A DNA stretch of 64,000 nucleotides, taken from Candidatus Aldehydirespirator sp. GTDB lineage: Bacteria; Actinomycetota; Acidimicrobiia; Acidimicrobiales; Aldehydirespiratoraceae. This document shows, piece after piece, positions 7,060-23,101 of the stretch. Under the pieces are notes generated by a model that was given only the letters and a program-made list of their open reading frames with translations, did not search any database and was not told where the DNA came from. The DNA is taken from NCBI GenBank assembly GCA_965220485.1, contig OZ244832.1, positions 4,475,068-4,539,067 of the forward strand, written 5' to 3'. Both the position numbers and the translations under genes were made by a program. Position 1 is the stretch's first letter; each line of letters starts with the position of its first letter.

Positions 7060-7168
7060 CTTTGTCTCCTTCCAGGAGCTGAGACCTCGGGGTCTGGGAC
7101 CTGAGTGTCGTTGAGGGGTGTGACAGCCAGTCCGGAGATATTTCAGAGGCTTTGGGACTGCAGCTCGA

Positions 7169-8011: not shown

Positions 8012-8339
8012 GTGCTCCCTCCCTGGCTCCGTCGGGGGTGTTCGAGCCATCCCGACTAGAAGGTCGCAGTGTATGCCCCGGCGCATCAGGGCTGCCACCG
8101 GAAGGACCGCCCGCGCAGCCGCCGGGTCCGTCGTCGCAATTCTCGTGGAAAGGGTCTGTGTCGCCCTTACCTAAAGGGGTTTTCACCTAGCGCAATTTTG
8201 CAGGAGGGGCTTATACGGAATGGTGCCGAAGATGAGGTCGGAGCGCTAATCCGTTGTCATACCCCCTCGCTACTGTGGTGGCACGACCACGACGAAGAAG
8301 GAAACGCAGCCAGCTCCGGGCAAGCACTGGCGCAAGGGC

Positions 8340-9290: not shown

Positions 9291-9761
9291 TCTCTCGGTC
9301 CCAAGTCTCTTGGGCTTGAGCCTGTCCGGCTGCCACGGCACGACCGATTAGCGCACCGAACTTCGCCAACCCGGTGACCATCGCCAGCGCCGCGGCAGTG
9401 TCGCTGACGGCTTGTAGACCGTCTCGGCTTGCCCGGCTGTCGGGGTCGTGCCCGGCGCGGATCGACTCAAGTCGAGCGCTGGTGAACCCGAACGGATACT
9501 TGCGCGTGGGCGCGCTGTCCTCTAGAGTTCTGTCTAAGCACTGCAATGTTGTGATCCTCCTTACGGGATCGGAACAGACGATGAGCCGCCCGTGCTGGGG
9601 CGGCTTTCGTCGTTCTGGTGGTTGTGGATAACCAGCTTGGCAGAGCTGTCCCGGCAGCGAGTGGATTTCACGAAGCGCCCCGTCTACGGTGGCCGTTGCC
9701 GACGGCCGGTCACAGGTGTCTGTCGGCAACAGCACCCCAACCCGCACCGGAGGAAGCCACC

Positions 9762-10148
9762 ATGCCCCCACGCCTAGCGGTCGCTGCGCTGCTGCTGACA
9801 GCCGCCTGCGCTGGCTCGACCGCGCCATCCGCAACACCAGCGCCCACGACGACGACCGTCGCGCCCACCACGACTGTGTTCACCTACGCCGACGCGTGCG
9901 CCCAAGAGGGCGGCACGCAGGGATACAGCGCCGCCACCGGAGTCCGGGTCTGCGAGATCGAAGACGTGATCCTGTTCAGACGCGACCCCGGCGATCCTGT
10001 CGGCTTCAAGCAGCGTTGCGAGAACGAGGGCGGGGAAGTCGAAGGCGTCACAGGCACCCGTCCGTGCATGCTGCGGGGCATTTCGTGGTTCACGCCGCAC
10101 GATTGGGACGACCCTGCCACCGAGCGCTACACCTTCGATGACGGCTAA
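9762..10148 (+). CDS. small secreted lipoprotein (IS passenger gene), hypothetical
   Basis: A GGAGGAAG RBS precedes ATG 9762. The signal peptide MPPRLAVAALLLTAAC has a lipobox Cys, followed by Thr/Pro-rich mature sequence. The gene lies inside the IS boundaries. Confidence 0.5.
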   Translation: MPPRLAVAALLLTAACAGSTAPSATPAPTTTTVAPTTTVFTYADACAQEGGTQGYSAATGVRVCEIEDVILFRRDPGDPVGFKQRCENEGGEVEGVTGTRPCMLRGISWFTPHDWDDPATERYTFDDG

Positions 10149-10185
10149 CCGCCCGCAACCCGAGTAGCGGACTAGGGTGGCCGCA

Positions 10186-10365
10186 TGGCAGCACCGAAGC
10201 GCCCAGACCGCTGGGACGGCTGGGACGACCCCGACTACACCCCAACCCAAACCGAACTAGAAGAACCCATCACCCTCAAAGACATCGAGGACGCGACCCC
10301 CGAAGACCTAGCCAAAGCCATCATGCGACCCATCAAAGGACCATCGTCCAATCAGCCCGGCTAGA
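10186..10365 (+). CDS. possible 59-aa acidic ORF inside IS right arm (hypothetical; below ORF-track cutoff)
   Basis: ATG…TAG reading frame MAAPKRPDRWDGWDDPDYTPTQTELEEPITLKDIEDATPEDLAKAIMRPIKGPSSNQPG. Its A-ending codon usage is atypical for the host, and there is no clear RBS. Confidence 0.15.
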
Positions 10366-10909
10366 CCGGTTTCGGCACCATCCCGTATAAGCCCCTTGCA
10401 GGAAAGGCCGCGCCTCGCTGGGAGGAGATGACGCCGGTGTCGAAGCCGGCCAGGTGCAGGCCGCCACCGAAGCGGGCGTGCTCGATCTTGAGGCACCGGT
10501 CCATCACCACGTCGAGCCCGGCGGCGGTGCAGCGCCGGGCGGCCTCGGCGCTCCACAGCCCGAGCTGCACCCAGAACGCGGAGGCGCCGGAGGCGATGGC
10601 CTCCTCGGCGACGGCGGGCAGGTCCTCGGACCGGCGGAACACGTCGACGATGTCGGGCGTGACCGGCACATCCGCGAGTGACCCGTACACCCGACGGCCG
10701 AGGATCTCGCTCCCGGCCGCTCGGGGGTTCACCGGGTACACGTCGAAGTCGGTGGAGGACGACAGCAGGTAGGTGAGAACGAAGTTGCTGGCCCGGGCCG
10801 GGTTGGACGAGGCACCGACGACTGCCACCGAGTGCGAGCGGTCCAGGATGCGCCGGCGCTCCCTCGCGGTCGGCGGCGTCCAGCCCTCCACGGGCGGATG
10901 CTCAGCCAT
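10361..10909 (-). CDS. CoA-binding domain protein (YccU/YneT family, PF13380-like)
   Basis: Starts [10 protein letters not shown]… with motifs SVAVVGASSNPARASNF… and …VMDRCLKIEHARF. The ATG overlaps the metY stop by 8 nt (ATGGCTGA). The last ~14 codons are encoded by the IS1595 right end. Confidence 0.7.
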   Translation of the reverse strand: MAEHPPVEGWTPPTARERRRILDRSHSVAVVGASSNPARASNFVLTYLLSSSTDFDVYPVNPRAAGSEILGRRVYGSLADVPVTPDIVDVFRRSEDLPAVAEEAIASGASAFWVQLGLWSAEAARRCTAAGLDVVMDRCLKIEHARFGGGLHLAGFDTGVISSQRGAAFPARGLYGMVPKPV

Positions 10910-12200
10910 CGGGATCCTTGGTTGCCGCGGCCAGGGCCTGGTCGAGGTCCCAGATGATGTCGGTGACGTCCTCGAGGCCGACCGATATGCGCACCATGTC
11001 CGGCGAGACGCCACCGGCCTGCAGCTCGGCGTCGGAGAGCTGCTGATGGGTGGTCGAGGCTGGGTGGATCACCAGCGTCTTGGCGTCGCCCACATTGGCC
11101 AGGTGCGACACCATCTGCAGCGACTCGATGAAGCGGGCGCCGGCGGCACGCCCGCCCACCACGCCGAAAGTGAAGATCGCTCCCGGTCCCTTGGGCAGGT
11201 AGCGGCGGGCCAGGTCGTGGTCCGGGTGGTCGGGCAGGCCGGCCCACAGCACCCACGCCACCCGATCGTCGGCGTCGAGCCACTGGGCCACGGTCCGGGC
11301 GTTGGCGACGTGGGCCTCCATGCGCAGAGGCAGCGTCTCCAGTCCCTGAAGCAGCAGGAAGGCGTTGAACGGTGATAGGCAGGCCCCGACGTCGCGCAGC
11401 TGCTCGGCTCGCACCTTCGTGCAGAAGGCGTACTCGCCGAAGTTGTCCCACCAGCGCAGCTCGTTGTAGCTCGGCACCGGCTCGGTCATGTGGGCGAAGC
11501 GCCCCGAGCCCCAGTCGAAGCGGCCCGCCTCCACGATCACCCCGCCGATGGATGTGCCGTGGCCGCCCAGGAACTTGGTGGCCGAGTGCAGCACGATGTC
11601 GGTGCCGTGGTCTAGGGGACGGCACAGGTAGGGCGTCGCGAAGGTTGAGTCGACCGCCAGAGGTAGGCGGTGGGCTTGGGCGACGTCGGCCAGTGCGACC
11701 AGGTCGGCCACGGCGCCGGAGGGGTTGGAGATGGTCTCGGTGTACAGCAGCTTGGTGTTCTCGCGGACGGCGGCCGCGAAAGCGTCGGGGTCGGTTCCGT
11801 CGACGAACGTCGTGTCGATGCCGAGGCGTCGCAGCGTCACATCGAACTGGGTGTAGGTGCCGCCGTAGAGGCCTGCCGCGGCCACCATGTGGTCGCCGGC
11901 GGCGGCCAGGGCGGTGACGGTGAGGAACTCGGCGGCCTGCCCGCTGGCGGTGGCCACGGCTCCGATGCCTCCCTCGAGGCTGGCCATGCGCTCCTCGAAG
12001 ACCGCGTTGGTCGGGTTGGACATCCGGGTGTAGATGGTCCCGTACTTCTGCAGGGCGAACAGGTCGGCGGCATCCGCGGTGTCCTCGAACACGAAGCTCG
12101 TGGACTGGTAGATGGGCACGGCCCGGGCGCCGGTGGCGGGATCGGGCTGGCTGCCCGCGTGCAGCGCCCGGGTGCGGAACCCCCAATTTCGGTCGTCCAT
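10902..12200 (-). CDS. metY: O-acetylhomoserine aminocarboxypropyltransferase (O-acetylhomoserine sulfhydrylase), PLP-dependent
   Basis: The 432-aa ORF has a Cys/Met-metabolism PLP-enzyme signature (…[33 protein letters not shown]…) and the MetY-typical N-terminus. Confidence 0.9.
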
Positions 12201-12323
12201 GCCCCGACGATACGTCAGACTGGCCGCCGCCGTGCCCCGAGGCGCCTGCTGGTGTTGCTCGGCTGAGCAGCCCTGCTGGTTGGGCGCGGTTGGCGGTGTC
12301 GTTGGAGTGGGGCGGTACTGTCG

Positions 12324-12827
12324 GTGACGATGGTCTCGTTCAGCGTCGAAACGATCGCCTTCGAGTCAGCGGACACTTCTCCGGTTGTCGGAGAGATGGA
12401 GGGCCTGGAGGCCCGGGGCGACGGTCAGGGCTGGATCAACATCGGCCCCGGGCTGCGAGACGACCAGATCGACCGGCTGCCGCCGCCGACGGTGCTGGGA
12501 CGCTGGTTCTCAGGACGGGGGCCGGCGGTGCCGATGGCGACGTGGACTCCGCCTCGGGGAGTTCCAGGCTCCATGCCGCCGACCTTGGGCGTTGAGCACG
12601 GCGCGGGCCCCAAAGCCCTGGACCTGCTCCGTGACGCCGGGGCGCCGCTGCCTGCCGGCTGGCGCAAGGTGCAGGACCACGCCAAGCACGGAATCGTCGC
12701 CCATCCATCGTCTCAAGCGTCCCACCACGACGTGCTGCTCTGGCTCCTGTCGGTGTGCTGGGCGCTGTGCCCCATAGACATAGAGGACAACTGGCTGGCA
12801 GAAATCCACCGCCCTCCTAGGAGTTGA
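12324..12827 (+). CDS. hypothetical protein (167 aa) at left edge of inserted island
   Basis: The ORF has high GC3 and no recognisable domain. Its last codons plus stop fall within the repeated 11-mer CTAGGAGTTGA (12817-12827). Confidence 0.2.
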   Translation: MTMVSFSVETIAFESADTSPVVGEMEGLEARGDGQGWINIGPGLRDDQIDRLPPPTVLGRWFSGRGPAVPMATWTPPRGVPGSMPPTLGVEHGAGPKALDLLRDAGAPLPAGWRKVQDHAKHGIVAHPSSQASHHDVLLWLLSVCWALCPIDIEDNWLAEIHRPPRS

Positions 12828-13013
12828 AGCCTGGACCCACCGATGGGACTGTGGTCTCTCACCAAATCTGCACGGATTGTGCTCGCATACGACGCGTTTC
12901 TCTACAGATTTCGGGACACCAGCGCTTCATGGTTGGGGTAAGTCCATCGCATGGTCTAACGGGCCGACCTGAAATGCCATACATTGTCACAGGGATTGGC
13001 TACCTTTGGGATC

Positions 13014-15932
13014 ATGGCCACCACTGAGCCGACCGTCAACACCTACGTGGCCCAATCGTTACGGACCATGCACCCGCGCTGGGCCGAGAGGGGCGCGATC
13101 GTCTCGCAGGCGACTGGGTTGATCGCTGGCGACAAGGGCAAGCAGCCCGACATCATGGTCCGCGTCCCGGGCGCAGCTCCTTTGGTGATCGAGGCCGAGT
13201 TCTACCCGGCGCGCACCCTGGAGGACGACGCGCTGAGCCGTGTGGGCGCTCAGACCGCCAACAGGTTCAGGCCCATCGAGACGGTCGTTGCGCTGCGCTA
13301 TCCGCGGCGTCTGCGCGATGTGCCCGAGACCGGCCTGGCCGAGGAATTGGCAAAGTGCGACGACTTGGAGTGGTGCGTGTGGACGGAAGGGCCCAGCAAC
13401 GTCAGGTTCCCGTCCGATGGCTGGGTGCGAAGCAGCTTGCCCCACTTGGCCAGCGCGATCGAGGTGGTGGCGGTGTCGCCGCGCCGCATCGACACGGCGG
13501 CGGACCGAATGGAACTGGGCGTCCTGCACGGCTCGGCTCTGCTGGCCGAGGCCGGCACGACGACCCAAGCCAAGCTGGCCGAACTCTTGCACCAGGAGGC
13601 CGGCGAGCAGACAACGAGGATGGCGGCGTCGGTCATCATCAACGCTTTCCTGTTCCAGATCGCGGTGGCGTCCAGCCACGGCACTCCGGGGATCGAGGCG
13701 ACCGCCGCCGCTTCGGGGGATCCGGAGCATCTGAGCAAGGCGGACGTGCTCGACGTCTGGAAGCAGATCCTGCGAATCAACTACTGGCCGGTATTCGACA
13801 TAGCCCGCAGGCTGCTGCTGCCGATCAGTCAGCCCGTTGCTGACGAACTATGCCAGAGGCTAGGCCAGACGGCCTTGAGCCTGGCCGCTACCGGCGCCGT
13901 CGAGGTGCAGGACCTCGCGGGACAGATGTTCGGGAGGCTGATCGCCGACCGCAAGTTCCTGGCCACCTTCTACACGCTGCCCGAGTCGGCCGCCCTCTTG
14001 GCTGAGCTGGCGGTGTCGCGCCTCGACACCGAAGTCGACTGGTCCGACGCGACGGCCGTGACCGACCTGCGGATCGGGGACCTGGCCTGCGGGACCGGTG
14101 CGCTGCTCTCTGCGGTCTACCGGCGCATCGCGGCGAGGGTGCGCCGGGCCGGGCATGACGACGCCCGGCTCCACGCTGCGATCATGCAGGAGACGCTGAT
14201 CGGCGCCGACATAATGCCCGCCGCGGCCCACCTCACCACGACGATCCTGTCGGCCTCGCACCCGGCGATCGGATTCGGGAAGTGCGGCGTCCATGTGCTG
14301 CCCTTCGGGCGCATCCCCGGCGGCGGCGTCGCCGTGGGCTCTCTGGACCTGCTTGGCGATGCCGGGACCCTCTCGCTTCTGGGGCGGCCGGGAACCCGGC
14401 TGGCCGGGAGCATGGACGACGACGAGCCCGACGACGCCCTCGCAGCGTGCAACGTCGGCGACGGCACCCTCGACCTATGCATCATGAACCCGCCGTTCAC
14501 CCGTCCCACCAACCATGAGACGGCTGGCACAGCGGGTGTTCCGGTGCCGTCATTCGCGGGGTTCGGCACCACGGCGGACGACCAGCGGGCCATGTCGGCG
14601 CGGCTCGCCGAGTTGAGTCCGGCGGGCAACGGGCCGCGTGCCGGCCACGGTAATGCTGGCCTGGCCTCGAACTTCGTCGACTTGGCGCACGCCAAGCTGC
14701 GCCCGGGAGGAGTGTTGGCGCTGGTCCTGCCGTTCTCAGCCGCCTCCGGTGGATCCTGGGCGGGACTGCGGCGGCTCCTCGAAAGGCACTACCGCGATGT
14801 GACTGTGGCCTCCATCGCAGCCCATGGGAGCACCGCCCGCGCCTTCTCGGCCGACACCAGCATGGCGGAGATCGCGCTCGTGGCCGTCAAACGACTCGCA
14901 GACACCGCAGTCGAAGGGTCGCGGGTGAGCTGGAGCAGCCTGGCGCGCCGCCCGACGAGCATGGTCGAAGCAGTGCAGGTCGCTCGGGCCATCCACGACA
15001 GCGGGGCGCCGTCGGCGGCGCTCGGGGTGGAGGTGGGCGGCGTCCGCGTCGGATGCGTGCTACCGGGCGAGGTCTATGACGGCGGGCTCGCGGCGGTGGC
15101 CGAACCCGCCGTCGCGCATTTCGGGCTCGCACTGAGCAGATACGAGCCGAGCCTGAATCGGATCGGACACCTGCCGATTGCGGTGGTGCGGCTGGGCGAG
15201 ATGGGAAGACCCGGCCCGGTGCACCGGGACATCAGCGGCACGGACAAGACTTCCGGCGCGTATCGGGGCCCCTTCGACGTCAAGCCGCTGCTGCCCGGTC
15301 GGACCCCCTCCTATCCCGTTTTGTGGGCCCACGACGCGGCCTCGGGCCGCGAGTCGCAGATCGAGGTCCCGCCGGACACCCAGGGAAGGGTCCGAGCCGG
15401 TATGGACGAGCAGGCGCTCGGCGTGTGGGCGACGGCCACCCGCCTGCACATCAACCTCGACTTCCAGATCAACAGCCAGTCTCTGGTGGCCTGCGCCACT
15501 GCCGAGCCGTGCATCGGCGGAAGGGCCTGGCCGTCCTTCGCCCTTGACGACACGGCCTGGGAAGAGGCCGTGGCCCTGTGGATGAACACCACGCTCGGCC
15601 TGATCGCATTCTGGTTCGCAGGCAGCCGTCAGCACCAGGGACGGGCCAGTCTCACAGTCACCCGGCTGGCCGACCTGGTAGTCGTCGATCCCCGCAGTCT
15701 CACAGACGAGCAGCTTGGCGTGGCCAGCGACGTGTTCGAGCGTTTCAGGAGCCGGCCGTTGCTGCCGGCCAACGAGGCGTATCGCGACGCGACGCGCCAG
15801 GAACTGGACGAGGCTGTGCTGTGCGAGGTACTAGGGCTTCCCGCCGATGTGCTGGCTCCGCTGTCGATCCTGCGCACGCAGTGGTGCGAAGAGCCGTCGG
15901 TTCACGGAGGCAAGTCCACCCGTCCCCGCTGA
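13014..15932 (+). CDS. MmeI/PglX-like large gamma-class N6-adenine DNA methyltransferase (Type IIG/IIL RM-enzyme homologue) with degenerate N-terminal PD-ExK-like motif
   Basis: AdoMet motif I IGDLACGTGALL lies upstream of catalytic motif IV CIMNPPF, which is gamma-class order. The N-terminal segment QPDIMVRVPGAAPLVIEAEF mirrors the MmeI nuclease segment D-LFWPGILLIEMK but reads E-A-E where MmeI has E-x-K. A ~330-aa C-terminal region is a candidate TRD. A TTG at 12984 is an alternative start. Confidence 0.75.
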   Translation: MATTEPTVNTYVAQSLRTMHPRWAERGAIVSQATGLIAGDKGKQPDIMVRVPGAAPLVIEAEFYPARTLEDDALSRVGAQTANRFRPIETVVALRYPRRLRDVPETGLAEELAKCDDLEWCVWTEGPSNVRFPSDGWVRSSLPHLASAIEVVAVSPRRIDTAADRMELGVLHGSALLAEAGTTTQAKLAELLHQEAGEQTTRMAASVIINAFLFQIAVASSHGTPGIEATAAASGDPEHLSKADVLDVWKQILRINYWPVFDIARRLLLPISQPVADELCQRLGQTALSLAATGAVEVQDLAGQMFGRLIADRKFLATFYTLPESAALLAELAVSRLDTEVDWSDATAVTDLRIGDLACGTGALLSAVYRRIAARVRRAGHDDARLHAAIMQETLIGADIMPAAAHLTTTILSASHPAIGFGKCGVHVLPFGRIPGGGVAVGSLDLLGDAGTLSLLGRPGTRLAGSMDDDEPDDALAACNVGDGTLDLCIMNPPFTRPTNHETAGTAGVPVPSFAGFGTTADDQRAMSARLAELSPAGNGPRAGHGNAGLASNFVDLAHAKLRPGGVLALVLPFSAASGGSWAGLRRLLERHYRDVTVASIAAHGSTARAFSADTSMAEIALVAVKRLADTAVEGSRVSWSSLARRPTSMVEAVQVARAIHDSGAPSAALGVEVGGVRVGCVLPGEVYDGGLAAVAEPAVAHFGLALSRYEPSLNRIGHLPIAVVRLGEMGRPGPVHRDISGTDKTSGAYRGPFDVKPLLPGRTPSYPVLWAHDAASGRESQIEVPPDTQGRVRAGMDEQALGVWATATRLHINLDFQINSQSLVACATAEPCIGGRAWPSFALDDTAWEEAVALWMNTTLGLIAFWFAGSRQHQGRASLTVTRLADLVVVDPRSLTDEQLGVASDVFERFRSRPLLPANEAYRDATRQELDEAVLCEVLGLPADVLAPLSILRTQWCEEPSVHGGKSTRPR

Positions 15933-15952
15933 TCAGGACTGTCCGGTCCTAC

Positions 15953-16175
15953 TGCTAGGAGTTGATCACCGCTTCCACGATGAGGTCGATCACGGCCTGG
16001 GCGTCCGCGTCCCACACGACGTCTTGGGCGGGCGGAGCCAGCTCAGCGGCGACGGCCGCTGGTGGGCGCACGTCGGTCACGGTCATGCCCCGGGTGTGCT
16101 CGCCGCGCAGTTCCACCGCAACCGGATGGCTTGACCGGTGGAATAAGTGGGGGTGGGTGATCGCGATGATGGCGT
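15953..16175 (-). pseudogene. duplicated 3'-end fragment (~220 bp, ~85% identical) of the nucleoside hydrolase gene at 20424-20645
   Basis: Direct alignment of 15953-16175 with 20422-20645. The translated fragment …THPHLFHRSSHPVAVELRGEHTRGMTVTDVRPPAAVAAELAPPAQDVVWDADAQAVIDLIVEAVINS* matches the true gene's C-terminus and has no upstream start. Confidence 0.8.
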
Positions 16176-16298
16176 GGCACGGCGTCCCGCCCCCGGTCTG
16201 CCGCGTCGGCACGTTGAACACGGGACTGCCAACCCGCGACATTGCATGGACGACACTGAGGATTGTCGCCGTGTTGGCTCGCCGGTAGGGTCGCACCC

Positions 16299-19200
16299 AT
16301 GCGGGTGGGCTCCATCGAACTGCCGGAAGAACTGGTGGACGCGCACGCCGAGGGCCGCCTCGTCCTGTTCGTTGGCGCCGGCGCGTCTGTCGCCGAGCCA
16401 ACATGCCTGCCCACCTACCGCGAGCTGGCCGAGAAGCTGGTCGAGCAGAGCGAGAGCCTGGTCTGCCGAGCAAGCCTCGACCGGCCAGACATAGTGCTCA
16501 GCAAACTCAAGTCGGACGGCGTAGACGTCCACGGGTGCGTGCACAAGCTGATCAGCGATCCGCAGGACCGGCCCGCGCCGAGGTCGAACAAGCTTCACCA
16601 AGCCATCGCCAGCCTGGCGACGGCCTCGCCGCAGGTGAGGATCGTCACCACCAACTACGACCGCTGCCTGTCGAACTGCCTGCCGGAGGGCGTGGACGAG
16701 TATGAGGCGCACGCCCTTCCCGAACAAGACGAGTTCACAGGGTTGGTCTACCTGCACGGCTCCGTGCGCCTGCCACTAGAGCGCTTGATCGTCACCGGAG
16801 ACGACTTGGGCCGTCACTACCTGAGCAACCACGGCGCGGCCAGGTTCCTGGAGCTGATGTTCCGAAACCTGTCGGTGCTGTTCATCGGCTACAGCTTGAA
16901 AGACACGTTGATGGACTATCTGGTCAGAGGACTACGTTCGGACCGGATCTATGTCTTGACCAACAAGCCGCAGGCCTCGCAGTGGCACCAACTCCGCATC
17001 ACTCCCATCGGTTGCGAGAGCCATGACAAGTTGCCTGGCATCGTCCAAGATTGGGCGGATCTGTCTCGGATGAGCATGTTGGATCATCAGCAGCGCGTCC
17101 GCCGAATCGTCTCAGGATCACCTCCCCTGACACCGGGCGACGACTCGTATCTTCACGACATCGTCTCTGACACTCGTCGACGAGGGCTGTTCATCGGTCA
17201 GGCGCGCGGCCTCGACTGGCTGCACTGGATGAGTTCCAAACCACCCTTCAAAGAGCTTCTGGATCCGTTCGTGTCGCCCGAGCGTATCGACCACAGGTTG
17301 GCCCAATGGTTCGCTGACCACTATGCGGCCAACGAGGACAGCACCACTGAGGCGCTAAGCCTGATCGTCGATGCCGGCGGAACCCTCAACCGTGAACTCT
17401 GGATGGCGATTGCGCAGTCTCTAAGGCTCCAGTCAGGCACGCGCAGTGAGGCAATGGATAGATGGCTGGCGCTGTTGGTGGAAGCGACGCCCCCAAGTCG
17501 TGGTCAAGATCACGTACTGCTCCTCTCACTACTCTTGGACGGATGCGACCCGGAGCGAGATCGCGCTGCGGTCCTGCTCCTACTGGACAGAGTTCTAGAG
17601 CCTGCACTACAGATGCGGCGTGATCAAGGTGCCAGAGTCGTCGTACCACTGTGCCGCAACTCGTTGGCTGAGCACCGGTTCGACCAGATCAAGCCTTACA
17701 TGTCGGCTCTTGCACTGGACCTAGCCCCGATTGTAGATCGGCAGCTGCGTAGAGCCCATTGGTTGCAGCGGGCGATCCACTCTCGAACGGAACAATATGA
17801 TTCCACGACAGTGCAGTTGATGGCACAACTAGGCCAAGATGTCTCGCATGTGACGGATCGCGAGTTCTTCGACAGCACGAGCCACAGACGCAAGGCCATC
17901 GAGTCTCACAGTCGGAACAAGCTCGCGTGCGGCATTGACCTGCTGATCGATGTTGCTCGGGATGTGTTGGAGCTGCTTGTGGAACGGTCACCAACGATCG
18001 CCGGCAGCTACCTGGAGAGTTGGAGCGGAGCCGAATCGGCGCTCCTGCGACGTCTGAGCGTTCACGGCTGGTGCGAGCGGACGGACGTGACCGCTGACGA
18101 GAAGCTGAAGTGGCTCACGAACGACGACTGGCTTGACGACCGGGACGCACATCACGAGGTGATGCGGCTGATCGCCACGGTCGCGCCGTCTGCCTCGGAG
18201 GGCGCGCTCGGTGGGCTGATTGAGCGTGCGTCGTCGGATTCGGTTGGCTGGAGAGAATTGAGACTCCTAGGTTGGATCGCACGGCACGCGCCCCAGTCGA
18301 TTGCGGCCCGCCGGGCTTTCGAGGCAGCGAAGAGGGCTCATACCCAGTGGAAGATGCCGAAGGATGCAGACTTCCGGGGCGGCGAAATCACGGGTGGGCA
18401 TATTCCGCTTCTACCGATTCGCGAGGCACATGAACTGCACGAACTCATCAGACAAGAACCACCGGAAGCGGTTGCACTGCTGCAGAAGTACGCCGACGTT
18501 GACGATTGGGAGGCTCCGGGATGGCTTTCGGCTATGGATGCTCTGCGTGCCACGGTAGAGGAGCATCCTGACGACGGTGTCAGCGTTCTTGAGGTGATCG
18601 CAGACGATACCGAGATCGATGCTGCAGTCAGTCAGAGCATCGCCGAGACAGTGTTCGGCGTGCTGAGCCGCATCGAGCAATCCCGCAGTCAGATCGATCA
18701 GTTGCAGGCCGTTCTCCCGAAGGTGTGGAAGACCGGCCTTGAGCGCTTCAACCCCCAGAGCCATGTCGTGAGTCCGTCGAGATGGATCGACGCCGCCATA
18801 AATCATTGGGCGGGCAAGTTGGCAGAACTGTGGATCGCCATCATCGCCGCTCAGTGGCGGAATGCTGGCGAGACGTGGGCCGGTCTCTGCAACACTACGA
18901 GTGCAGCGCTTAGAGAACTCTTGGCCGACGACAGTCAGGCATCGCACCATGCTCAGGCCGTACTGGCCAGCAAGGTGGCTTACTTGTTTGCAGCTGACCA
19001 GAAGTGGTGCCAAGACAACCTGCTACATCGTTTCGACAGTGAACGAGACAGCCTGCAGGCGTTTCGATTCTGGGACGGACTCTTGGGAAGCGGCCAACTG
19101 AGCGACGATCTATTGCAGGCTGGACTCTTGGACTATTTTGTCGGCTTCAGCCGCCAGCTCGAGGGCGGTGAGGAGAGGACAGGGGGCGGCGATGAGTCGA

Positions 19201-19871
19201 TTCGATCATCATATCTGGAGGCGGCAGCCGCCATTTGTCTTCAGAGTCAGATCAATCCTATGGAGCACGGTTGGCTCAGGAAGTGGATCTCTAGAATGGA
19301 CGCGAGCGGTCGCTGCGAGTGGGCTAGGATCGTGGCCTGGATGTTGTCGGAGATGTCGGCAGACGCCGCTGACGTTCACTGGTCGAGATGGATAAAAGGC
19401 TACTGGCAGAATCGAGTTGACAGCATCCCGCTGGCCCTCACGCCGGATGAGTCATCAGCGATGGTCGAGTGGACGGTACTGTTGGAAGCTGGTTTCACGG
19501 AAGCCGTTGAATTGGTAGCTTCCACCGAAGCCAGCTTTGTGAGGGAATCTCATATTCCTTCAGTGCTTTTAGATCACGCTGGGGCTGATGGCGACCGCTC
19601 GCGGCCGGATCATATCGCCCTTGAACCGCTAGTCGTGCGCGACCTCCTCGCGCATCTTCTCTCTAACAGCGAGACCACGGCTGATGACGATGGTCCTTGG
19701 AGCATCACGGACGCTGTCGAGCGGCTCGACCGAGCCCTCGACGAAGACGAGATGAAGCCCATATTGAACGAGCTGCTCAGACTCGGACACGAGGAGTTTG
19801 TCTCATGGCTTCAATCTCGGGAGCGAACGCAACAGGATCTCTTGTCGCCGGTGGGGTCGCCGCCTGGCTGA
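16299..19871 (+). CDS. DSR1-like antiphage protein: N-terminal SIR2 (SIR2_2/ThsA-type, NADase) domain + ~900-aa alpha-helical repeat C-terminal region
   Basis: The SIR2_2 motifs LVLFVGAGAS, IVTTNYDRCL, LVYLHGSV and VLFIGYSLKD are present. Total length is 1202 aa (tool ORF from 16263). GC is lower than its surroundings. Confidence 0.75.
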   Translation: MRVGSIELPEELVDAHAEGRLVLFVGAGASVAEPTCLPTYRELAEKLVEQSESLVCRASLDRPDIVLSKLKSDGVDVHGCVHKLISDPQDRPAPRSNKLHQAIASLATASPQVRIVTTNYDRCLSNCLPEGVDEYEAHALPEQDEFTGLVYLHGSVRLPLERLIVTGDDLGRHYLSNHGAARFLELMFRNLSVLFIGYSLKDTLMDYLVRGLRSDRIYVLTNKPQASQWHQLRITPIGCESHDKLPGIVQDWADLSRMSMLDHQQRVRRIVSGSPPLTPGDDSYLHDIVSDTRRRGLFIGQARGLDWLHWMSSKPPFKELLDPFVSPERIDHRLAQWFADHYAANEDSTTEALSLIVDAGGTLNRELWMAIAQSLRLQSGTRSEAMDRWLALLVEATPPSRGQDHVLLLSLLLDGCDPERDRAAVLLLLDRVLEPALQMRRDQGARVVVPLCRNSLAEHRFDQIKPYMSALALDLAPIVDRQLRRAHWLQRAIHSRTEQYDSTTVQLMAQLGQDVSHVTDREFFDSTSHRRKAIESHSRNKLACGIDLLIDVARDVLELLVERSPTIAGSYLESWSGAESALLRRLSVHGWCERTDVTADEKLKWLTNDDWLDDRDAHHEVMRLIATVAPSASEGALGGLIERASSDSVGWRELRLLGWIARHAPQSIAARRAFEAAKRAHTQWKMPKDADFRGGEITGGHIPLLPIREAHELHELIRQEPPEAVALLQKYADVDDWEAPGWLSAMDALRATVEEHPDDGVSVLEVIADDTEIDAAVSQSIAETVFGVLSRIEQSRSQIDQLQAVLPKVWKTGLERFNPQSHVVSPSRWIDAAINHWAGKLAELWIAIIAAQWRNAGETWAGLCNTTSAALRELLADDSQASHHAQAVLASKVAYLFAADQKWCQDNLLHRFDSERDSLQAFRFWDGLLGSGQLSDDLLQAGLLDYFVGFSRQLEGGEERTGGGDESIRSSYLEAAAAICLQSQINPMEHGWLRKWISRMDASGRCEWARIVAWMLSEMSADAADVHWSRWIKGYWQNRVDSIPLALTPDESSAMVEWTVLLEAGFTEAVELVASTEASFVRESHIPSVLLDHAGADGDRSRPDHIALEPLVVRDLLAHLLSNSETTADDDGPWSITDAVERLDRALDEDEMKPILNELLRLGHEEFVSWLQSRERTQQDLLSPVGSPPG

Positions 19872-19905
19872 GCACAAGCCTCTCAGCAGATGAACAGGCA
19901 ATGCT

Positions 19906-20385
19906 GTGAGGGTTGCGCGGACTCGCGCCTTCGATCAGTGGCTGGAGGACATCACCGACATCAGGTCTCCGGTGTACTTGGGCGAGTCGTGCCGACATGT
20001 GCAAGATCAGGTCGAGGCACTGATCGACATCCTATCGGCTGCCGAACACCCCGTCGGCAGGCCGGATGGTGCGCCGCTGCGGGGCAGTCGGTACGCGCTG
20101 CACGAACTGAGATGGCCGCGGCTGGATCGAGGTGAAGGCCCGGACGTTCGGAGCGGACAGCCGGTTGTACGCGTGTTCTACGGGCTGGTGGGCAGAAGAT
20201 TCGAGCGTGCCGGGAGCCGAGGCCCGATCGCAGTCATGCTGCTCGGCGGAAACAAGACGTCGGCGATCGCGGGGTCCGGCTCACAGGATCGATGGTATGC
20301 GGATCACATCCGTCTCGCAGAGGCGCGCCTCGAACAGTGGTGCGCTGACCATCCCACGCTGATGCCTATCCGGGCGAGCCGATAG
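19906..20385 (+). CDS. RelE/ParE-superfamily 'addiction module killer' protein (COG3657/TIGR02683-like), orphan (no adjacent antitoxin)
   Basis: The N-terminus …FDQWLEDITD… is followed by …ELRW…PVVRVFYGLVG…IAVMLLGGNKTS…WYADHIRLAEARLEQW. No HTH antitoxin ORF lies between it and the convergent hydrolase gene. Confidence 0.5.
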   Translation: MRVARTRAFDQWLEDITDIRSPVYLGESCRHVQDQVEALIDILSAAEHPVGRPDGAPLRGSRYALHELRWPRLDRGEGPDVRSGQPVVRVFYGLVGRRFERAGSRGPIAVMLLGGNKTSAIAGSGSQDRWYADHIRLAEARLEQWCADHPTLMPIRASR

Positions 20386-20423
20386 CCGTCCGGCGCGTCC
20401 GTGGGACGCAAGTCCAGCCGCCG

Positions 20424-21374
20424 CTAGGAGTTGACCACTGCCTCCACGATCAGGTCGATGACTGCATGGGCGTCGGCGTCCCACACCACGTCGTGGGCGG
20501 GCGGAGCTGGCTCAGCGGCGATGGCGGCCGGAGGGCGCACGTCGGTGACGGTCATGCCTCGGGTGTGCTCACCGCGCAACTCCACCGTCACCGGGTGGCG
20601 CGACCGGCGGAACAGGTGCGGGTGCGTGACGCAGATGACGGCCGTGGCGTCATGCACCGGGGCCGCTTCCAGGCCGAACTCCCGGCACCGGTCGTAGGCG
20701 AACTCCAGGAGGCCGGCCGCGAAGTCGGCCGCCGGGGTACCGGCTGAGCGCATCCGGGCCGCTTCGTCGCCTCCGAGCAGCACCCTGTGGGTGACGTCGA
20801 GGCCGACCATGGTGATCGGCGCCGCCTCGGAGAACACGATGGCGGCCGCCTCGGGGTCGGCCCACACATTGAACTCGGCTACGGAGGTGACGTTGCCGGT
20901 GTGGGCGCCGCCCCCCATGATGGTGAGCCCGGCCAGATGGCTCCGCAGGTCGGGGTCGCGCCTCAGCGCGAGGGCCACGTTGGTGAGGGGCCCGACCGCC
21001 ACCAGGTGCAGGTCGTCGACGGAGCGGGCCATGTCGCACAGGTAGGCCACGGCGTCCTCGGAGGCCACGGTCCGGGTCAGCTCGGGCAGGGCCACGTCTC
21101 CCAGCCCGGTGGCCCCGTGGATGCGGGCCGCGTCCATGGTGGGGGCGATCAGCGGCCGGGCCGAGCCCCGGTGCACGGGTACCTCCAGGCTGGCGATCTG
21201 CGCGGTCACCAGCGCGTTGTGGGTGGTGTGCTCGATGCCCACGTTGCCGTTGACGGCAGTGATCCCCACCAGCTCGCCGTGGTGGGCCGCGGTGAGGATG
21301 GCGATGGCGTCGTCGAGCCCAGGGTCGCAGTCCAGAACGATCCGGGGCCGGGCCGGTGCCGCGTCGACGGTCAC
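20424..21374 (-). CDS. inosine-uridine preferring nucleoside hydrolase (IUNH/Rih family)
   Basis: The 316-aa ORF has the signature RIVLDCDPGLDDAIAIL and the Ca-binding Asp cluster. Confidence 0.9.
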   Translation of the reverse strand: MTVDAAPARPRIVLDCDPGLDDAIAILTAAHHGELVGITAVNGNVGIEHTTHNALVTAQIASLEVPVHRGSARPLIAPTMDAARIHGATGLGDVALPELTRTVASEDAVAYLCDMARSVDDLHLVAVGPLTNVALALRRDPDLRSHLAGLTIMGGGAHTGNVTSVAEFNVWADPEAAAIVFSEAAPITMVGLDVTHRVLLGGDEAARMRSAGTPAADFAAGLLEFAYDRCREFGLEAAPVHDATAVICVTHPHLFRRSRHPVTVELRGEHTRGMTVTDVRPPAAIAAEPAPPAHDVVWDADAHAVIDLIVEAVVNS

Positions 21375-21383
21375 GGGCCGAGC

Positions 21384-22361
21384 CTAGGCGCCGAGCAGGC
21401 GATCGACCTCGTCCCTTGTCGGCAGGGAGGGCTGGGCACCGGGTCGCAGCGTGGCGGCGGTGCCCACCCGCACGGCCCAGCGGGCCGCACCCACTAGATC
21501 GGCTCCGTCCGCCAGGGCGTCGGCGAGCGCTCCGCAGAAGGCGTCGCCAGCTGCGGTGGTGTCGACCGGCACGACCGCCGGCGCGGGCACGTGAGTTGCC
21601 TCGCTGGGTGTGACGACCATCGCCCCGGCCGCTCCCAGGGTCACCACCACGGCCGCGACCGGCAGCCCGCGGGCCAGTGCCACTGCGGTCGCGGGGTCCA
21701 CGTCGCCGATGGCGGACAGTCCGGCGTGGCCGGCCATCGTGGCCAACTCGGTCTGGTTGGGCACGAGCACGTCCACGCCGTCGAGCACATCGGGGGGCAA
21801 CGGCGCGGCCGGTGCAGGAGCGGGATTCAGCACCACGAGGCCACGGGCGGTACTCACCGCGGCCGCAACCGCCTCGAGGGGCACCTCGAGCTGCAGCAGC
21901 ACCACCGCCGCGGCCTTGACCGCCTCGGCGGACTCCGCCACATCGGCGGCGCTGACGCGGCCGTTGGCGCCCGGGCTCACCACGACGGTGTTGTCGCCGT
22001 CGGCGCCCACCGCGATCAGCGCGAGGCCACTCGGGGTGTCGGTGGTGGTGTGCAGGCTGGTCGTGTCGACGTCGGCGGAGGCAAGCGCCGTCCTCAGGAT
22101 CGATCCAGCGTCGTCGTCGCCGACCCGTCCTACCATGGCCACTCGCCGGCCGAGGCGGGCCGCGGCGACGGCCTGGTTGGCGCCCTTGCCGCCGGGGATT
22201 TGTCGCAGATCGCCGCCGAGCACGGTCTCGCCCGCCACCGGGATCGTTGCCACGTCCACCACCAAGTCGAGGTTGGCGCTCCCCACCACGACCACCTCGG
22301 CGCGAGCGCTCTCCTGCCCGTCTCTGCAGGCAGTCCCGGTCGCGTCGTGCGCCTCGCTCAT
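21384..22361 (-). CDS. rbsK: ribokinase (PfkB family)
   Basis: The 325-aa protein starts at ATG 22361 behind a GGGAGGTG RBS. It has VVVVGSANLDL, the GG dipeptide, and the anion hole DTTAAGDAF. The 499-aa tool ORF is a run-on. Confidence 0.85.
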   Translation of the reverse strand: MSEAHDATGTACRDGQESARAEVVVVGSANLDLVVDVATIPVAGETVLGGDLRQIPGGKGANQAVAAARLGRRVAMVGRVGDDDAGSILRTALASADVDTTSLHTTTDTPSGLALIAVGADGDNTVVVSPGANGRVSAADVAESAEAVKAAAVVLLQLEVPLEAVAAAVSTARGLVVLNPAPAPAAPLPPDVLDGVDVLVPNQTELATMAGHAGLSAIGDVDPATAVALARGLPVAAVVVTLGAAGAMVVTPSEATHVPAPAVVPVDTTAAGDAFCGALADALADGADLVGAARWAVRVGTAATLRPGAQPSLPTRDEVDRLLGA

Positions 22362-22427
22362 CGCCACCTCCCGCTTCACACAGTCACACTGCTTCCCCAC
22401 TGTAGGGTCGCCGGCATGGACCGGCTG

Positions 22428-22835
22428 CTTGAGTTTGCTGGCGGGGCCGTTCCGGCGGAGGCTGTGACTTGGCGCTTCGGCCCCTCGGGCGGGCCCGGCG
22501 GCCAGCACGCCAACCGGTCGAGCACGCGGGTGGAGGCTGTCCTCGACCTCACAACGGCTGGCGACATGGTGCCGGAGGCCCGTGAGCGGCTCATCGACCA
22601 GTTCGGTGCCGAGATGCGGGTGGTGGTGGACGACACGCGGTCGCAGGCTCGCAACCGCGACATTGCGCTCGACCGTCTGCAGGCGCGGCTTCGCGACGGT
22701 GTCGCCGTCACCAAGCCGAGGAAGCCGACCCGCCCGTCGGGGCGGTCCCGCCGACGTCGCCTCGACAAGAAGCGCCAGCGGTCCGAGACCAAGCGAGGCC
22801 GAGGCCGCATCGACCTGTCCGACATCGACGGCTAG
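22428..22835 (+). CDS. arfB: alternative ribosome-rescue factor ArfB (peptidyl-tRNA hydrolase, GGQ motif)
   Basis: The 135-aa protein has PSGGPGGQHANRSSTRV and a basic C-terminal tail (KPRKPTRPSGRSRRRRLDKKRQRSETKRGRGR). It is divergent from rbsK. Confidence 0.85.
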   Translation, partial: LEFAGGAVPAEAVTWRFGPSGGPGGQHANRSSTRVEAVLDLTTAGDMVPEARERLIDQFGAEMRVVVDDTRSQARNRDIALDRLQARLRDGVAVTKPRKPTRPSGRSRRRRLDKKRQRSETKRGRGRIDLSDIDG

Positions 22836-23101
22836 CAGCGCCGCCGGTTCGGGTTCGGGGGGCGGCCGCGCTCCACGTCGCATCGACCTGTCCAGCTTCG
22901 ACGGCTAGCTGTGTGAACCGTCCGGTTGGCCGGCCGTGAACCGCCGACTTGCATGCGGGTGCCGGCGGCGGCACGGGCGGTGAGCGCAGTACCGGAATCA
23001 AAAGTTGACTGAACTGGTCGGTTTTTGGCTGGCGGGGTTCTACACTCCCCCGACACCACGCGCTCACCCGGAGCGGTGGAGGTAGGGAGACGTGCATCCA
23101 A

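What the first reader, a model, noticed from the sequence alone, without database searches (positions are those of the whole stretch)
12817..20645. Serial cassette insertions at a hotspot immediately 3' of the nucleoside-hydrolase gene, each bounded by copies of that gene's 3' end
The 11-mer CTAGGAGTTGA is the reverse complement of the hydrolase stop plus its last codons. It occurs three times: at 12817, at 15955 and at 20434, the last being the true gene end. Each copy sits exactly at a cassette boundary. The MTase cassette (12.8-15.95 kb) and the SIR2+toxin cassette (16.2-20.4 kb) are separated by a ~220-bp, ~85%-identical duplicate of the hydrolase 3' end (15953-16175 vs 20422-20645). The ancestral arrangement was probably metY-spacer-hydrolase. 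This pattern suggests repeated site-specific or homology-driven acquisition of defence modules at one locus without a co-located integrase.
Basis: seen in the sequence. Interest (0 to 1): 0.75.

Follow-up and report, generated by a model that had tools for sequence, protein, structure and literature searches.

The report
Defence-gene hotspot with recombination scars
Two convergent housekeeping genes in an uncultured Acidimicrobiia genome flank a spot where defence genes have repeatedly been gained and lost by ordinary recombination, leaving leftover pieces of the neighbouring hydrolase gene; it is a clear but unsurprising example of a known process.

Summary
CTAGGAGTTGA occurs three times (12817, 15955, 20424; 0.01 expected). 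A 220-nt copy of the hydrolase 3' end (15954-16173) is 84% identical to the true end (20423-20642).

Related genomes confirm a hotspot. Five have an empty site where the hydrolase and a conserved 167-aa gene (12324-12827, not a spacer) converge and overlap by about 4 nt. Seven carry the methyltransferase-like gene only, one carries two, and four lineages carry a Dsr1-like sirtuin plus orf159.

- **Copy 1** of the 11-mer is the ancestral hydrolase tail, still attached to orf167.
- **The 220-nt copy** lies in the same position, abutting the methyltransferase gene's stop, as the intact hydrolase 3' end in methyltransferase-only relatives, so it is most simply a relic of an earlier hydrolase gene.
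- **The 11-mer is not a recombination core.** A 96%-identical sister genome with the same layout has three different versions.
- **Scar lengths vary** (11, at least 18, 169, about 225 nt).
- **Flanks are mosaic.** Hydrolase and ribokinase alleles are 81-87% identical between genomes whose outer flanks are 94-98% identical.
- **No integrase** was found in the window.

Best explanation: turnover driven by flanking homology, with occasional illegitimate or single-crossover joins. This is a new member of a known kind; interest is moderate to low.

The parts
10902..12200 (-). metY (O-acetylhomoserine sulfhydrylase), left core flank
   Evidence: PF01053 E=1.3e-129; TIGR01326 617 bits. It is 96-98% nt identical to L081 and L082.
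12324..12827 (+). orf167, a conserved hypothetical gene that forms the left border of the hotspot; it converges on the hydrolase in empty-site genomes
   Evidence: No Pfam, NCBIfam, PADLOC, PHROGs or PDB match. It is present next to metY in nearly all relatives. In L003, L005, L006, L016 and L053 its stop abuts or overlaps the hydrolase stop.
12817..12827 (+). 11-mer copy 1: relic of the ancestral hydrolase tail, now the last codons and stop of orf167
   Evidence: blastn alignments to the tight empty sites of L005, L006, L016 and L053 extend to 12827, whereas alignments to methyltransferase-carrying loci stop at 12814-12816.
12828..12921 (.). Insert of about 95 nt holding a small inverted-repeat element (AAATCTG...CAGATTT, 12863-12911)
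   Evidence: Absent from L081 and L082. The element recurs in the L004 empty site in the opposite orientation, and in L089 both at the orthologous place and between the hydrolase and PfkB genes. Its RNA fold is not unusual (z = -0.68).
13014..15932 (+). Methyltransferase-like gene (972 aa), the older cargo
   Evidence: The family-invariant motifs DxACGTG and NPP(F/T) are present. PADLOC hits are weak: MTase_II 2.9e-11, mad2 6e-08, PglX and IIG. There is no Pfam hit. More than 4400 homologues of about 970 aa exist, nearly all unannotated. It is 99-100% identical to L081 over 13070-15000.
15933..15954 (.). 22-nt spacer with a small hairpin (AGGAC..GTCCT) between the methyltransferase stop and the hydrolase fragment
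   Evidence: The same spacer separates the methyltransferase gene from the intact hydrolase in L082.
15955..16185 (-). Hydrolase 3' fragment (about 225 nt, includes 11-mer copy 2), read as a relic of a former hydrolase gene that abutted the methyltransferase gene
   Evidence: It forms one collinear block with the methyltransferase gene in L001, L007, L008, L009, L081 and L082 (window 12968-16178). The distal half is 97.6% identical to L089's fragment. It shows decay: a 4-nt insertion and an ATAAG change.
16186..16289 (.). Junction plus the Dsr1 upstream region
   Evidence: Homology to L036, L084 and L087 starts at about 16224-16265. Positions 16186-16223 match nothing.
16290..19871 (+). Dsr1-like SIR2 gene (1193 aa), the newer cargo, with low G+C
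   Evidence: PF13289 4.8e-16 and DUF4020; PADLOC Dsr1 2.3e-41; NCBIfam Dsr1 202 bits against a cut-off of 1400. G+C is 55-61% against 70-75% in the flanks.
19906..20385 (+). orf159, a constant companion of this Dsr1-like gene
   Evidence: It has 13 homologues only. It follows the Dsr1-like gene in L036, L083-86 and L089, and also in an unrelated island in L087. No family or structure match was found, and the AF2 model has pLDDT 51.
20424..21374 (-). Intact IU-nucleoside hydrolase gene (includes 11-mer copy 3 and the 220-nt true copy 20423-20642), right border of the hotspot
   Evidence: PF01156 3.7e-88. It is only 85-87% identical to L081 and L082, whose outer flanks are 94-98% identical; the nearest allele is L001 at 92%.
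21384..22290 (-). PfkB ribokinase, part of the mosaic right flank
   Evidence: PF00294 2.5e-63. It is 81-86% identical to L081, L082 and L089. Identity to L082 rises to 96-98% from about 22180, and to L081 from about 22480.

Best explanation
The junction between two convergent core genes, orf167 and the nucleoside hydrolase, is an integrase-free hotspot. Its cargo is exchanged between related genomes mainly by homologous recombination in the flanking genes. The copies of the hydrolase 3' end are scars of the rarer events in which one end of the incoming DNA did not find its homologous partner.

**Shown**
- The ancestral state has the two genes overlapping by about 4 nt.
- A methyltransferase-like gene sits between them in many lineages.
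- In the lineage of this window and L089, a block carrying the Dsr1-like gene and orf159 lies between an intact hydrolase gene and a 225-nt remnant of the hydrolase 3' end. That remnant still abuts the methyltransferase gene, exactly as a whole hydrolase does in methyltransferase-only relatives.

**Inferred**
- The Dsr1 block entered together with a complete hydrolase allele. It was anchored by homology on the hydrolase/ribokinase side.
- Its other end joined inside the resident hydrolase about 225 nt before the stop. The join was either an illegitimate end-join (homology-facilitated illegitimate recombination, HFIR) or a single crossover of a circularised fragment carrying the hydrolase/methyltransferase junction.
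- The 11 nt at orf167's end are the equivalent scar of the earlier methyltransferase insertion into a tight empty site.
- Afterwards the copies kept recombining with each other and with alleles from other genomes.
For: 1. **Empty sites and alternative cargo exist in relatives.**
2. **The fragment is in the ancestral position.** Window 12968-16178 (methyltransferase gene plus fragment) is one collinear block with [methyltransferase gene + intact hydrolase 3' end] in L001, L007, L008, L009, L081 and L082. The 22-nt hairpin spacer is shared with L082.
3. **The two 220-nt copies are not each other's nearest relatives.** They are 83-84% identical to each other, while each is 86-90% identical to alleles of other genomes.
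4. **Flanking-gene mosaicism.** For the window, L081 and L082, metY is 96-98% and the OsmC side 95-97% identical. The hydrolase is 85-87% and the ribokinase 81-86% identical in all three pairwise comparisons. Breakpoints lie at about 22180-22480 and at 21396 against L089.
5. **Junction positions and scar lengths differ.**
   - 11 nt: window, orf167 end.
   - 18 of 18 nt: L001, between its two methyltransferase cassettes (E=3e-05).
   - 169 nt of hydrolase plus 92 nt of metY plus about 100 nt of orf167: L088.
   - About 225 nt: window and L089.
6. **The 11-mer triple is not conserved in sister L089**.
7. **The copies are recombination substrates.**
   - L089's true copy is homogenised with its fragment over about 150 nt.
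   - The fragment's proximal half resembles L082's allele most in the window (88%; shared hairpin spacer).
   - In L089 the proximal half is L081-type; L089's fragment is 91% identical to L081 overall.
8. **No integrase or recombinase was found** in the island or among about 50 window ORFs.
9. **Published precedents exist.** Sequential displacement by HFIR that shifts old 3' ends backwards is described in PMC5361080. Insertion of restriction-modification (RM) genes with long, variable target duplications that overlap gene 3' ends, without mobility genes, is described in PMC2853133.
Against: - No donor can be named. Both copies are mosaics, and neither is clearly 'foreign'.
- The right-hand crossover is inferred only from identity profiles. 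These could equally reflect later, unrelated allele swaps; the ribokinase differs even between the window and L089.
- The proposed illegitimate join (about 16186-16223) shows no demonstrable microhomology.
- The short relics that would tie the events together are not significant against background. These are the methyltransferase-3'-like stretch at 20386-20423 and the tail-like stretches in L084 and L036.
- Nothing separates HFIR from a single-crossover insertion or a long target duplication followed by allele replacement.
- The means of DNA transfer in these uncultured bacteria is unknown.
Confidence: 0.6

Rival explanations
1. Insertion with long target duplication. The Dsr1 block (and earlier the methyltransferase gene) inserted into the resident DNA while duplicating the target in situ: about 225 nt of hydrolase tail, and perhaps a few tens of nt of the methyltransferase 3' end. 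This is the mode described for RM genes. The copies then diverged through decay and later allele replacement.
For: The architecture matches: direct repeats flank cargo, align to a single copy in genomes without the cargo, overlap a gene's 3' end, and no mobility gene is present. Repeat lengths vary (PMC2853133). L001's 18 of 18 identical local copy and L088's long duplication of metY and orf167 sequence look like duplications of local sequence. A methyltransferase-3'-like stretch next to the intact hydrolase (20386-20423) would be the other half of such a duplication.
Against: Published cases have near-identical repeats (44/46, 417/423). Here the copies are 84% identical, and each is closer to alleles of other genomes than to the other copy. 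Extra allele-replacement events are therefore needed. The 20386-20423 relic is not statistically significant.
Confidence: 0.2
2. Site-specific integration. A recombinase encoded elsewhere recognises a core overlapping the hydrolase stop (the 11-mer or a roughly 30-nt site), and successive integrations leave one core copy at every cassette boundary, as in tandem genomic islands or integron cassettes.
For: Three exact copies of an 11-mer sit exactly at the three boundaries. Cargo accumulates in tandem and in one orientation. One relative (L090) has two tyrosine-recombinase genes about 6 kb from its hydrolase.
Against: The triple identity is absent from sister genome L089, which has the same architecture. 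Boundaries fall at different positions (0, -14, -169, -225 nt) in different genomes. Methyltransferase-only relatives show no tail copy at orf167's end. No integrase was found in the window. The sequence around the stop does not resemble an attC site (from inspection).
Confidence: 0.05
3. Small hairpin or REP-like repeats that populate these junctions create the breaks or act as portable homology, and so drive the rearrangements. The candidates are the AAATCTG..CAGATTT element and the GTGGCCCGAGCGGCCCGTGA element.
For: The inverted-repeat element lies at the orf167/methyltransferase boundary in the window and L089, in the otherwise empty site of L004, and exactly at the hydrolase/PfkB allele breakpoint of L089. 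The second repeat fills the L062 empty site and flanks the element in L089.
Against: There are few copies, no element at the Dsr1 junctions, and the fold is not unusual. Intergenic gaps between convergent genes are where such repeats accumulate anyway (general knowledge).
Confidence: 0.08

Closest known systems
Integrase-free defence or accessory-gene hotspots between conserved core genes, turned over by homologous recombination in the flanks (general knowledge of bacterial pangenome hotspots and defence islands)
   Same: Fixed core-gene borders, an empty site in relatives, different defence cargo in different genomes, no mobility genes, and elevated recombination in the flanking genes.
   Different: This one is in uncultured Acidimicrobiia. 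The insertion point is the few-nucleotide overlap of two convergent genes, so scars are unusually legible.
Sequential displacement of T6SS effector-immunity modules in Vibrio cholerae, and Rhs/CDI orphan arrays, proposed to arise by homology-facilitated illegitimate recombination (PMC5361080)
   Same: New modules enter from one conserved side. Older modules are pushed back. Remnants of the 3' end of the displaced gene stay in the array. No integrase is involved, and the flanks are mosaic.
   Different: There the displaced gene is the effector itself and selection keeps immunity genes. Here the truncated gene is a metabolic neighbour, replaced by an intact allele, and the retained module is a methyltransferase-like gene.
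Insertion of restriction-modification genes with long and variable target duplication (Furuta, Abe and Kobayashi 2010, PMC2853133)
   Same: A methyltransferase-type gene and other defence cargo are flanked by direct repeats of tens to hundreds of nt. The repeats correspond to one copy in the empty genome and overlap a gene's 3' end, with no other mobile element.
   Different: The repeats here are only 84% identical, and each is closer to foreign alleles than to the other copy. The cargo next to the long repeat is a Dsr1-like gene, not an RM system.
Phage or island integration into the 3' end of a protein-coding gene with a substitute 3' end (e.g. e14 and phage 21 in icd; recalled from my own knowledge, not checked here)
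   Same: The displaced original 3' end remains as a diverged direct repeat, and the gene stays intact through a substitute end.
   Different: Those elements carry an integrase and recombine at a defined core. Neither is present here.

Membership tests
Core-gene-flanked, integrase-free genomic hotspot (defence island) | Same flanking core genes in related genomes, with an empty site in some | tested here: met
   Hydrolase and orf167 are adjacent or overlapping in L003, L005, L006, L016 and L053.
Core-gene-flanked, integrase-free genomic hotspot (defence island) | Different cargo at the same junction in different genomes | tested here: met
   Cargo is the methyltransferase-like gene only, two copies of it, that gene plus Dsr1+orf159, a decayed copy plus Dsr1+orf159, or 77-109-nt inserts.
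Core-gene-flanked, integrase-free genomic hotspot (defence island) | Cargo consists of defence genes | tested here: inconclusive
   The Dsr1-like assignment is solid at domain level. The 972-aa protein has methyltransferase motifs but only weak PADLOC hits and no Pfam hit. orf159 is unknown.
Core-gene-flanked, integrase-free genomic hotspot (defence island) | No integrase or transposase inside the island; turnover by recombination in the flanks | tested here: met
   No mobility gene lies in 12.3-21.4 kb. Hydrolase and ribokinase are 81-87% identical against flanks of 94-98%. Breakpoints are seen.
Site-specific integrative element (attL/attR plus integrase) | Integrase or recombinase gene in or next to the element | tested here: not met
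   None was found among about 50 ORFs of the window. The only mobility gene is an IS1595-type transposase at 8340-9290.
Site-specific integrative element (attL/attR plus integrase) | Conserved core repeat at a fixed position at each boundary | tested here: not met
   L089 has three different versions. Scar lengths of 11, at least 18, 169 and about 225 nt occur at different positions.
Integron gene cassettes | IntI integrase and attC hairpin sites at cassette 3' ends | tested here: not met
   No tyrosine recombinase was found in the window. Boundary sequences lack the R''/R' attC consensus on inspection, and the cassettes carry their own upstream regions. No dedicated attC model was run.
[quoted passage not shown] | Direct repeats over 30 bp that align to one copy in the genome without the insert, with no other mobile element | tested here: met
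   The 220-nt repeat has a single copy in L081, L082, L007 and others.
[quoted passage not shown] | Repeat copies near-identical to each other, as a duplication of local sequence | tested here: not met
   The copies are 84% identical, and each is closer to other genomes' alleles. Published cases have 44/46 and 417/423.
Homology-facilitated illegitimate recombination / sequential displacement | A junction inside a resident gene on one side leaving a truncated remnant, with homologous exchange on the other side | tested here: inconclusive
   The truncated remnant in its ancestral position is shown. The homologous crossover is inferred from identity steps at about 22180-22480, but the region is mosaic and no donor was identified.
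Homology-facilitated illegitimate recombination / sequential displacement | Microhomology at the illegitimate joint; dependence on RecA and DNA uptake | not testable with these tools
   The join at 16186-16223 has no identifiable parental sequences. The organisms are uncultured.
Dsr1 (defence-associated sirtuin 1) | N-terminal SIR2 domain on a single polypeptide of about 1200 aa | tested here: met
   PF13289 at residues 126-228 and DUF4020 near the C-terminus, in a 1193-1202 aa protein. PADLOC Dsr1 2.3e-41.
Dsr1 (defence-associated sirtuin 1) | Reaches the NCBIfam equivalog score | tested here: not met
   NF041818 scores 202 bits against a cut-off of 1400, and only the N-terminal roughly 300 residues match. 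It is Dsr1-like, not an equivalog, and it is always followed by orf159.
Gamma-class N6-adenine DNA methyltransferase / type IIG-like enzyme | AdoMet motif I and catalytic motif IV (NPPY/F) | tested here: met
   D356-x-A-C-G-T-G362 and N492-P-P494 are invariant in 24 family members. The window protein has NPPF.
Gamma-class N6-adenine DNA methyltransferase / type IIG-like enzyme | Significant match to a curated methyltransferase family or a solved methyltransferase | tested here: not met
   No Pfam or NCBIfam hit. PDB profile matches to BrxX and M.TaqI are only E=0.2-0.6. PADLOC MTase_II scores 2.9e-11 over about 140 residues.

The most novel reading that the evidence does not exclude
The cargo units may be integrase-free mobile cassettes. 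Because each is flanked by direct repeats made of the neighbouring genes' ends, it could loop out as a circle carrying one repeat. After transfer, it could re-enter the same junction of another genome by a RecA-mediated single crossover, regenerating the repeats. The small hairpin or REP-like elements at the junctions might promote the breaks. This would make the convergent-gene overlap a self-perpetuating landing pad for defence genes.
Probability: 0.1. Interest if true: 0.6.

Novelty: new member of a known kind. Interest (0 to 1): 0.35.

Why it matters
This is a well-resolved natural example of how a defence island grows and decays without any dedicated mobility gene, in a clade of uncultured Acidimicrobiia. 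The series of states runs from empty site, through one cassette and two cassettes, to decaying cassettes. The scars are dated by position. That makes the order of events and the role of flanking-gene recombination directly readable.

It also flags three other things:
- a large unannotated family of about 970-aa methyltransferase-like proteins;
- a Dsr1-like gene with a constant small partner;
- a second insertion site on the other side of the same two-gene operon.

It does not reveal a new mechanism.

Tried and rejected
1. **Methyltransferase stop-proximal codons derived from orf167's end.** I tested whether the shared GGGCGG(G)TGGAC stretch was a roughly 30-nt att-like repeat at every boundary. 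Rejected: the C-terminal motif WCEEPSVHGGKSTRP is conserved across the whole methyltransferase-like family, including 47-50% identical members from other contexts.
2. **Short relics.** Three candidates were checked: a methyltransferase-3'-like stretch at 20386-20423, a tail-like stretch upstream of Dsr1 at 16190-16215, and similar stretches in L084 and L036. None scores above background in local-alignment scans. They are kept only as hints. The L036 'tail' turned out to be the methyltransferase gene's own stop region.
3. **Simple 'resident versus imported' labelling of the two 220-nt copies by identity to relatives.** Not possible; both are mosaics. The 95.9% match of L081 to window 12970-16178 is carried by the methyltransferase gene; the fragment itself is only 77-91% identical.
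4. **Fold of orf159.** AlphaFold2 with 11 sequences gave pLDDT 51, so no fold search was run. There were no Pfam, PADLOC, PHROGs or PDB hits.
5. **PDB searches for the methyltransferase-like protein.** Single-sequence and profile searches gave nothing significant.
6. **Cargo in more distant relatives.** In L002, L011, L012 and L013 it is mostly metabolic genes in rearranged synteny, so it says little about the hotspot.
7. **RNA structure of the 95-nt insert.** Not unusual.
Full report
**Observation.** CTAGGAGTTGA occurs three times in the window, at 12817, 15955 and 20424, all on the + strand. Shuffles give 0.01 matches on average. A 220-nt direct repeat, 15954-16173 vs 20423-20642, is 84% identical. 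The second copy is the 3' end of an intact IU-nucleoside hydrolase gene (20424-21374, minus strand; PF01156, E=3.7e-88). The first copy translates as the last ~70 residues of such an enzyme. No other notable repeat lies in 11-22.5 kb.

**Gene content.**

| Coordinates | Strand | Feature |
|---|---|---|
| 10902-12200 | - | metY |
| 12324-12827 | + | orf167, no family match |
| 13014-15932 | + | 972-aa methyltransferase-like protein |
| 15955-~16185 | - | hydrolase fragment |
| 16290-19871 | + | Dsr1-like SIR2 protein |
| 19906-20385 | + | orf159 |
| 20424-21374 | - | hydrolase |
| 21384-~22290 | - | PfkB ribokinase |

- The methyltransferase-like protein has motif I (DLACGTG) and motif IV (NPPF). 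PADLOC hits are weak and there is no Pfam hit.
- The Dsr1-like protein matches PADLOC Dsr1 at 2.3e-41 and carries a DUF4020 domain. NCBIfam Dsr1 scores only 202 bits against a cut-off of 1400.
- The Dsr1 block has 55-61% G+C against 70-75% in the flanks.

**Comparative evidence for a hotspot.** A scan of one genome per species with the hydrolase returned 80 loci, the closest from uncultured Acidimicrobiia. Further close relatives came from protein look-ups. States of the junction:

| State | Loci |
|---|---|
| Empty and tight | L003, L005, L006, L016, L053 |
| Small non-coding inserts | L010 (~28 nt), L062 (77 nt), L004 (109 nt) |
| Methyltransferase-like gene only | L007, L008, L009, L081, L082, L088, L090 |
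| Two such genes in tandem | L001 |
| That gene plus Dsr1+orf159 | window, L089, L083-86 |
| Internally deleted copy plus Dsr1+orf159 | L036 |

In the tight empty sites the hydrolase and orf167 converge, and their stop codons overlap by about 4 nt (...GTCAACTCCTAACCGGGGCGGTGGACC...). The ancestral order is therefore metY, orf167, hydrolase.

**What the three copies are.**
- *Copy 1 (12817-12827).* This is the old hydrolase tail left on orf167's end. Alignments of the tight empty sites run through 12827, while those of methyltransferase-carrying loci stop at 12814-12816. A 1-nt indel lets orf167 read on to the TGA inside the 11-mer.
- *Copy 2.* This is the end of the 225-nt fragment. Window 12968-16178 (methyltransferase gene plus fragment) is one collinear block with [methyltransferase gene + intact hydrolase 3' end] in L001, L007, L008, L009, L081 and L082. 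The 22-nt hairpin spacer is the one that separates the two genes in L082. The fragment therefore occupies the position of the 3' end of a hydrolase gene that once abutted the methyltransferase gene. It shows decay.
- *Copy 3.* This is the end of the present hydrolase gene.

**Not a recombination core.** L089, from another sample, shares the whole architecture at 96.3% identity over 10.5 kb (window 10915-21396). Its three sites read CTAGGAGTTGA, TTGGGAGATGA and CTAGAAGTTGA. Hydrolase tails vary between genomes, so the exact triple in the window is a coincidence of three homologous alleles.

Scars in other genomes differ in length and position:
- L001 has an 18 of 18 copy of its own tail between its two methyltransferase cassettes.
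- L088 has a decayed [fragment end, Dsr1 5' part, orf159 3' end, 169 nt of hydrolase 3' end]. This is joined to a second copy of 92 nt of metY plus orf167, at 78-88% identity.
- Methyltransferase-only loci have no significant tail copy.

No integrase was found in the island or among about 50 window ORFs. The only mobility gene is an IS1595-type transposase at 8340-9290.

**Evidence for homology-driven exchange.** Among the window, L081 and L082, identities are as follows.

| Region | Identity |
|---|---|
| CoA-binding gene | 94-98% |
| metY | 96-98% |
| OsmC side | 95-97.5% |
| Hydrolase | 85-87.5% |
| Ribokinase | 81-86% |

- The window's hydrolase and ribokinase alleles are nearest to L001's (92% and 91%).
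- Identity to L082 rises to 96-98% at about 22180, and to L081 at about 22480.
- Against L089 it drops at 21396, where the ribokinase is 82% identical.
- The methyltransferase gene is 99-100% identical to L081's over 13070-15000, then falls.
- The fragment's proximal half resembles L082's allele most in the window (88%). It is L081-type in L089. L089's true copy has been homogenised with its fragment over about 150 nt.
- The two 220-nt copies are 83-84% identical to each other, but each is 86-90% identical to other genomes' alleles.

The locus is thus a mosaic kept in flux by recombination between alleles and between the two copies.

**Mechanism.** The best reading is that cargo is normally swapped by double crossovers in the flanks, which leave no scar. 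Occasionally one end joins inside the resident hydrolase. Two routes could produce that join:
- an illegitimate end-join anchored by homology on the other side (HFIR);
- a single crossover of a circularised fragment.

Either route leaves the resident 3' end behind the new cargo, while the incoming DNA supplies an intact gene.

The order orf167 | methyltransferase gene | fragment | Dsr1 | orf159 | hydrolase then records the order of acquisition. I cannot separate this from an in-situ long target duplication followed by allele replacement. No donor was found, the join at 16186-16223 matches nothing, and the short relics that would link the events are not significant.

**Comparison with known systems.**
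- Sequential displacement of T6SS effector-immunity modules, with shifted 3' ends, mosaic flanks and no integrase, has been attributed to HFIR (PMC5361080).
- RM genes inserted with long, variable target duplications that overlap gene 3' ends and lack mobility genes are documented in many bacteria (PMC2853133).
- Core-gene-flanked defence hotspots are well established (general knowledge).

This locus is a new, clearly legible member of that kind.

**Verdict.**
The hotspot, serial acquisition, empty site, alternative cargo and absence of an integrase are all right. The 'spacer', the significance of the 11-mer, and the idea that the repeats belong to the cassettes need correction.
- Novelty: new member of a known kind.
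- Interest: 0.35.

Noticed in passing
window 8023-10421 (IS1595-type transposase 8340-9290, + strand; unknown ORF 9256-9837, - strand): There is a second variable spot between the CN-hydrolase and CoA-binding genes. The window has a 2.4-kb insert with an ISXO2-like DDE transposase (PF12762, 1.9e-40). L082 has 240 nt there, and L081 and L089 have about 6 kb with SLH-domain and DUF4143 genes.
   Followed up: partly
window 12863-12911; L089 9850-9898 and 18466-18514; L004 10961-11008: A small inverted-repeat element of about 48 nt (AAATCTG...CAGATTT) sits at variable junctions. These are the orf167/methyltransferase spacer, the otherwise empty L004 site (opposite orientation), and the hydrolase/PfkB gap of L089, where the allele breakpoint lies. 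Related 47-nt palindromes occur in L043, L047 and L051.
   Followed up: partly
window 60910-60929 (- strand); L062 10977 and 1439; L089 7817 and 18423; L002 11143; L053 7738: A dispersed short repeat containing GTGGCCCGAGCGGCCCGTGA makes up the 77-nt insert in the L062 empty site and flanks the inverted-repeat element in L089. It looks like a REP-type intergenic repeat.
   Followed up: partly
L090 15068-18595; L001 about 4530-9045; L008 8581-8994: There is a second insertion site on the other side of the hydrolase-PfkB operon, between PfkB and an RF-1-domain gene. L090 carries another Dsr1-like gene there (PADLOC Dsr1 2.3e-44), followed by two Phage_integrase genes and an rve fragment. L001 has about 4.5 kb of unknown DNA, and L008 has a DUF4020-like fragment.
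   Followed up: partly
window 13014-15932: The 972-aa methyltransferase-like protein belongs to a family with more than 4400 database hits of about 970 aa, from several phyla. Almost all are unannotated and without Pfam domains. The family has invariant motifs I and IV, an N-terminal PD...E.E stretch, and a strictly conserved C-terminus WCEEPSVHGGKSTRP.
   Followed up: partly
window 19906-20385; L087 10001-10480: orf159 (13 homologues only) always directly follows this Dsr1-like gene. This holds even in an unrelated defence island (L087: GmrSD, Dsr1-like, orf159, an 1116-aa unknown, a DEAD/MZB helicase, AlpA). That suggests a two-gene variant of Dsr1. Its fold could not be predicted.
   Followed up: partly
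window 49297-51260: An AAA_21 ATPase (PF13304, 8.8e-36) is followed by an RloB-like protein (PF13707, 8.7e-23). This is a pair typical of OLD- or PARIS-type defence modules, and it lies far from the hotspot.
   Followed up: no
window 21384-22883: The 499-aa ORF listed here is over-extended. Relatives have a 300-328-aa PfkB gene plus a 139-aa RF-1-domain gene on the opposite strand, corresponding to window ~22416-22838.
   Followed up: yes
L088 6600-8760: A methyltransferase-only relative keeps a decayed Dsr1 block on the metY side of orf167. The block consists of the fragment end, 780 nt of Dsr1, the orf159 3' end and 169 nt of hydrolase 3' end. It is bounded by a roughly 350-nt diverged duplication of the metY 5' end plus the orf167 5' end. 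This is a long-duplication scar that does not involve the hydrolase stop.
   Followed up: partly
L089 17404-17650 vs 12937-13180: In the sister genome the intact hydrolase 3' end and the fragment are identical over about 150 nt, although they differ in the window. This indicates gene conversion between the two copies.
   Followed up: partly
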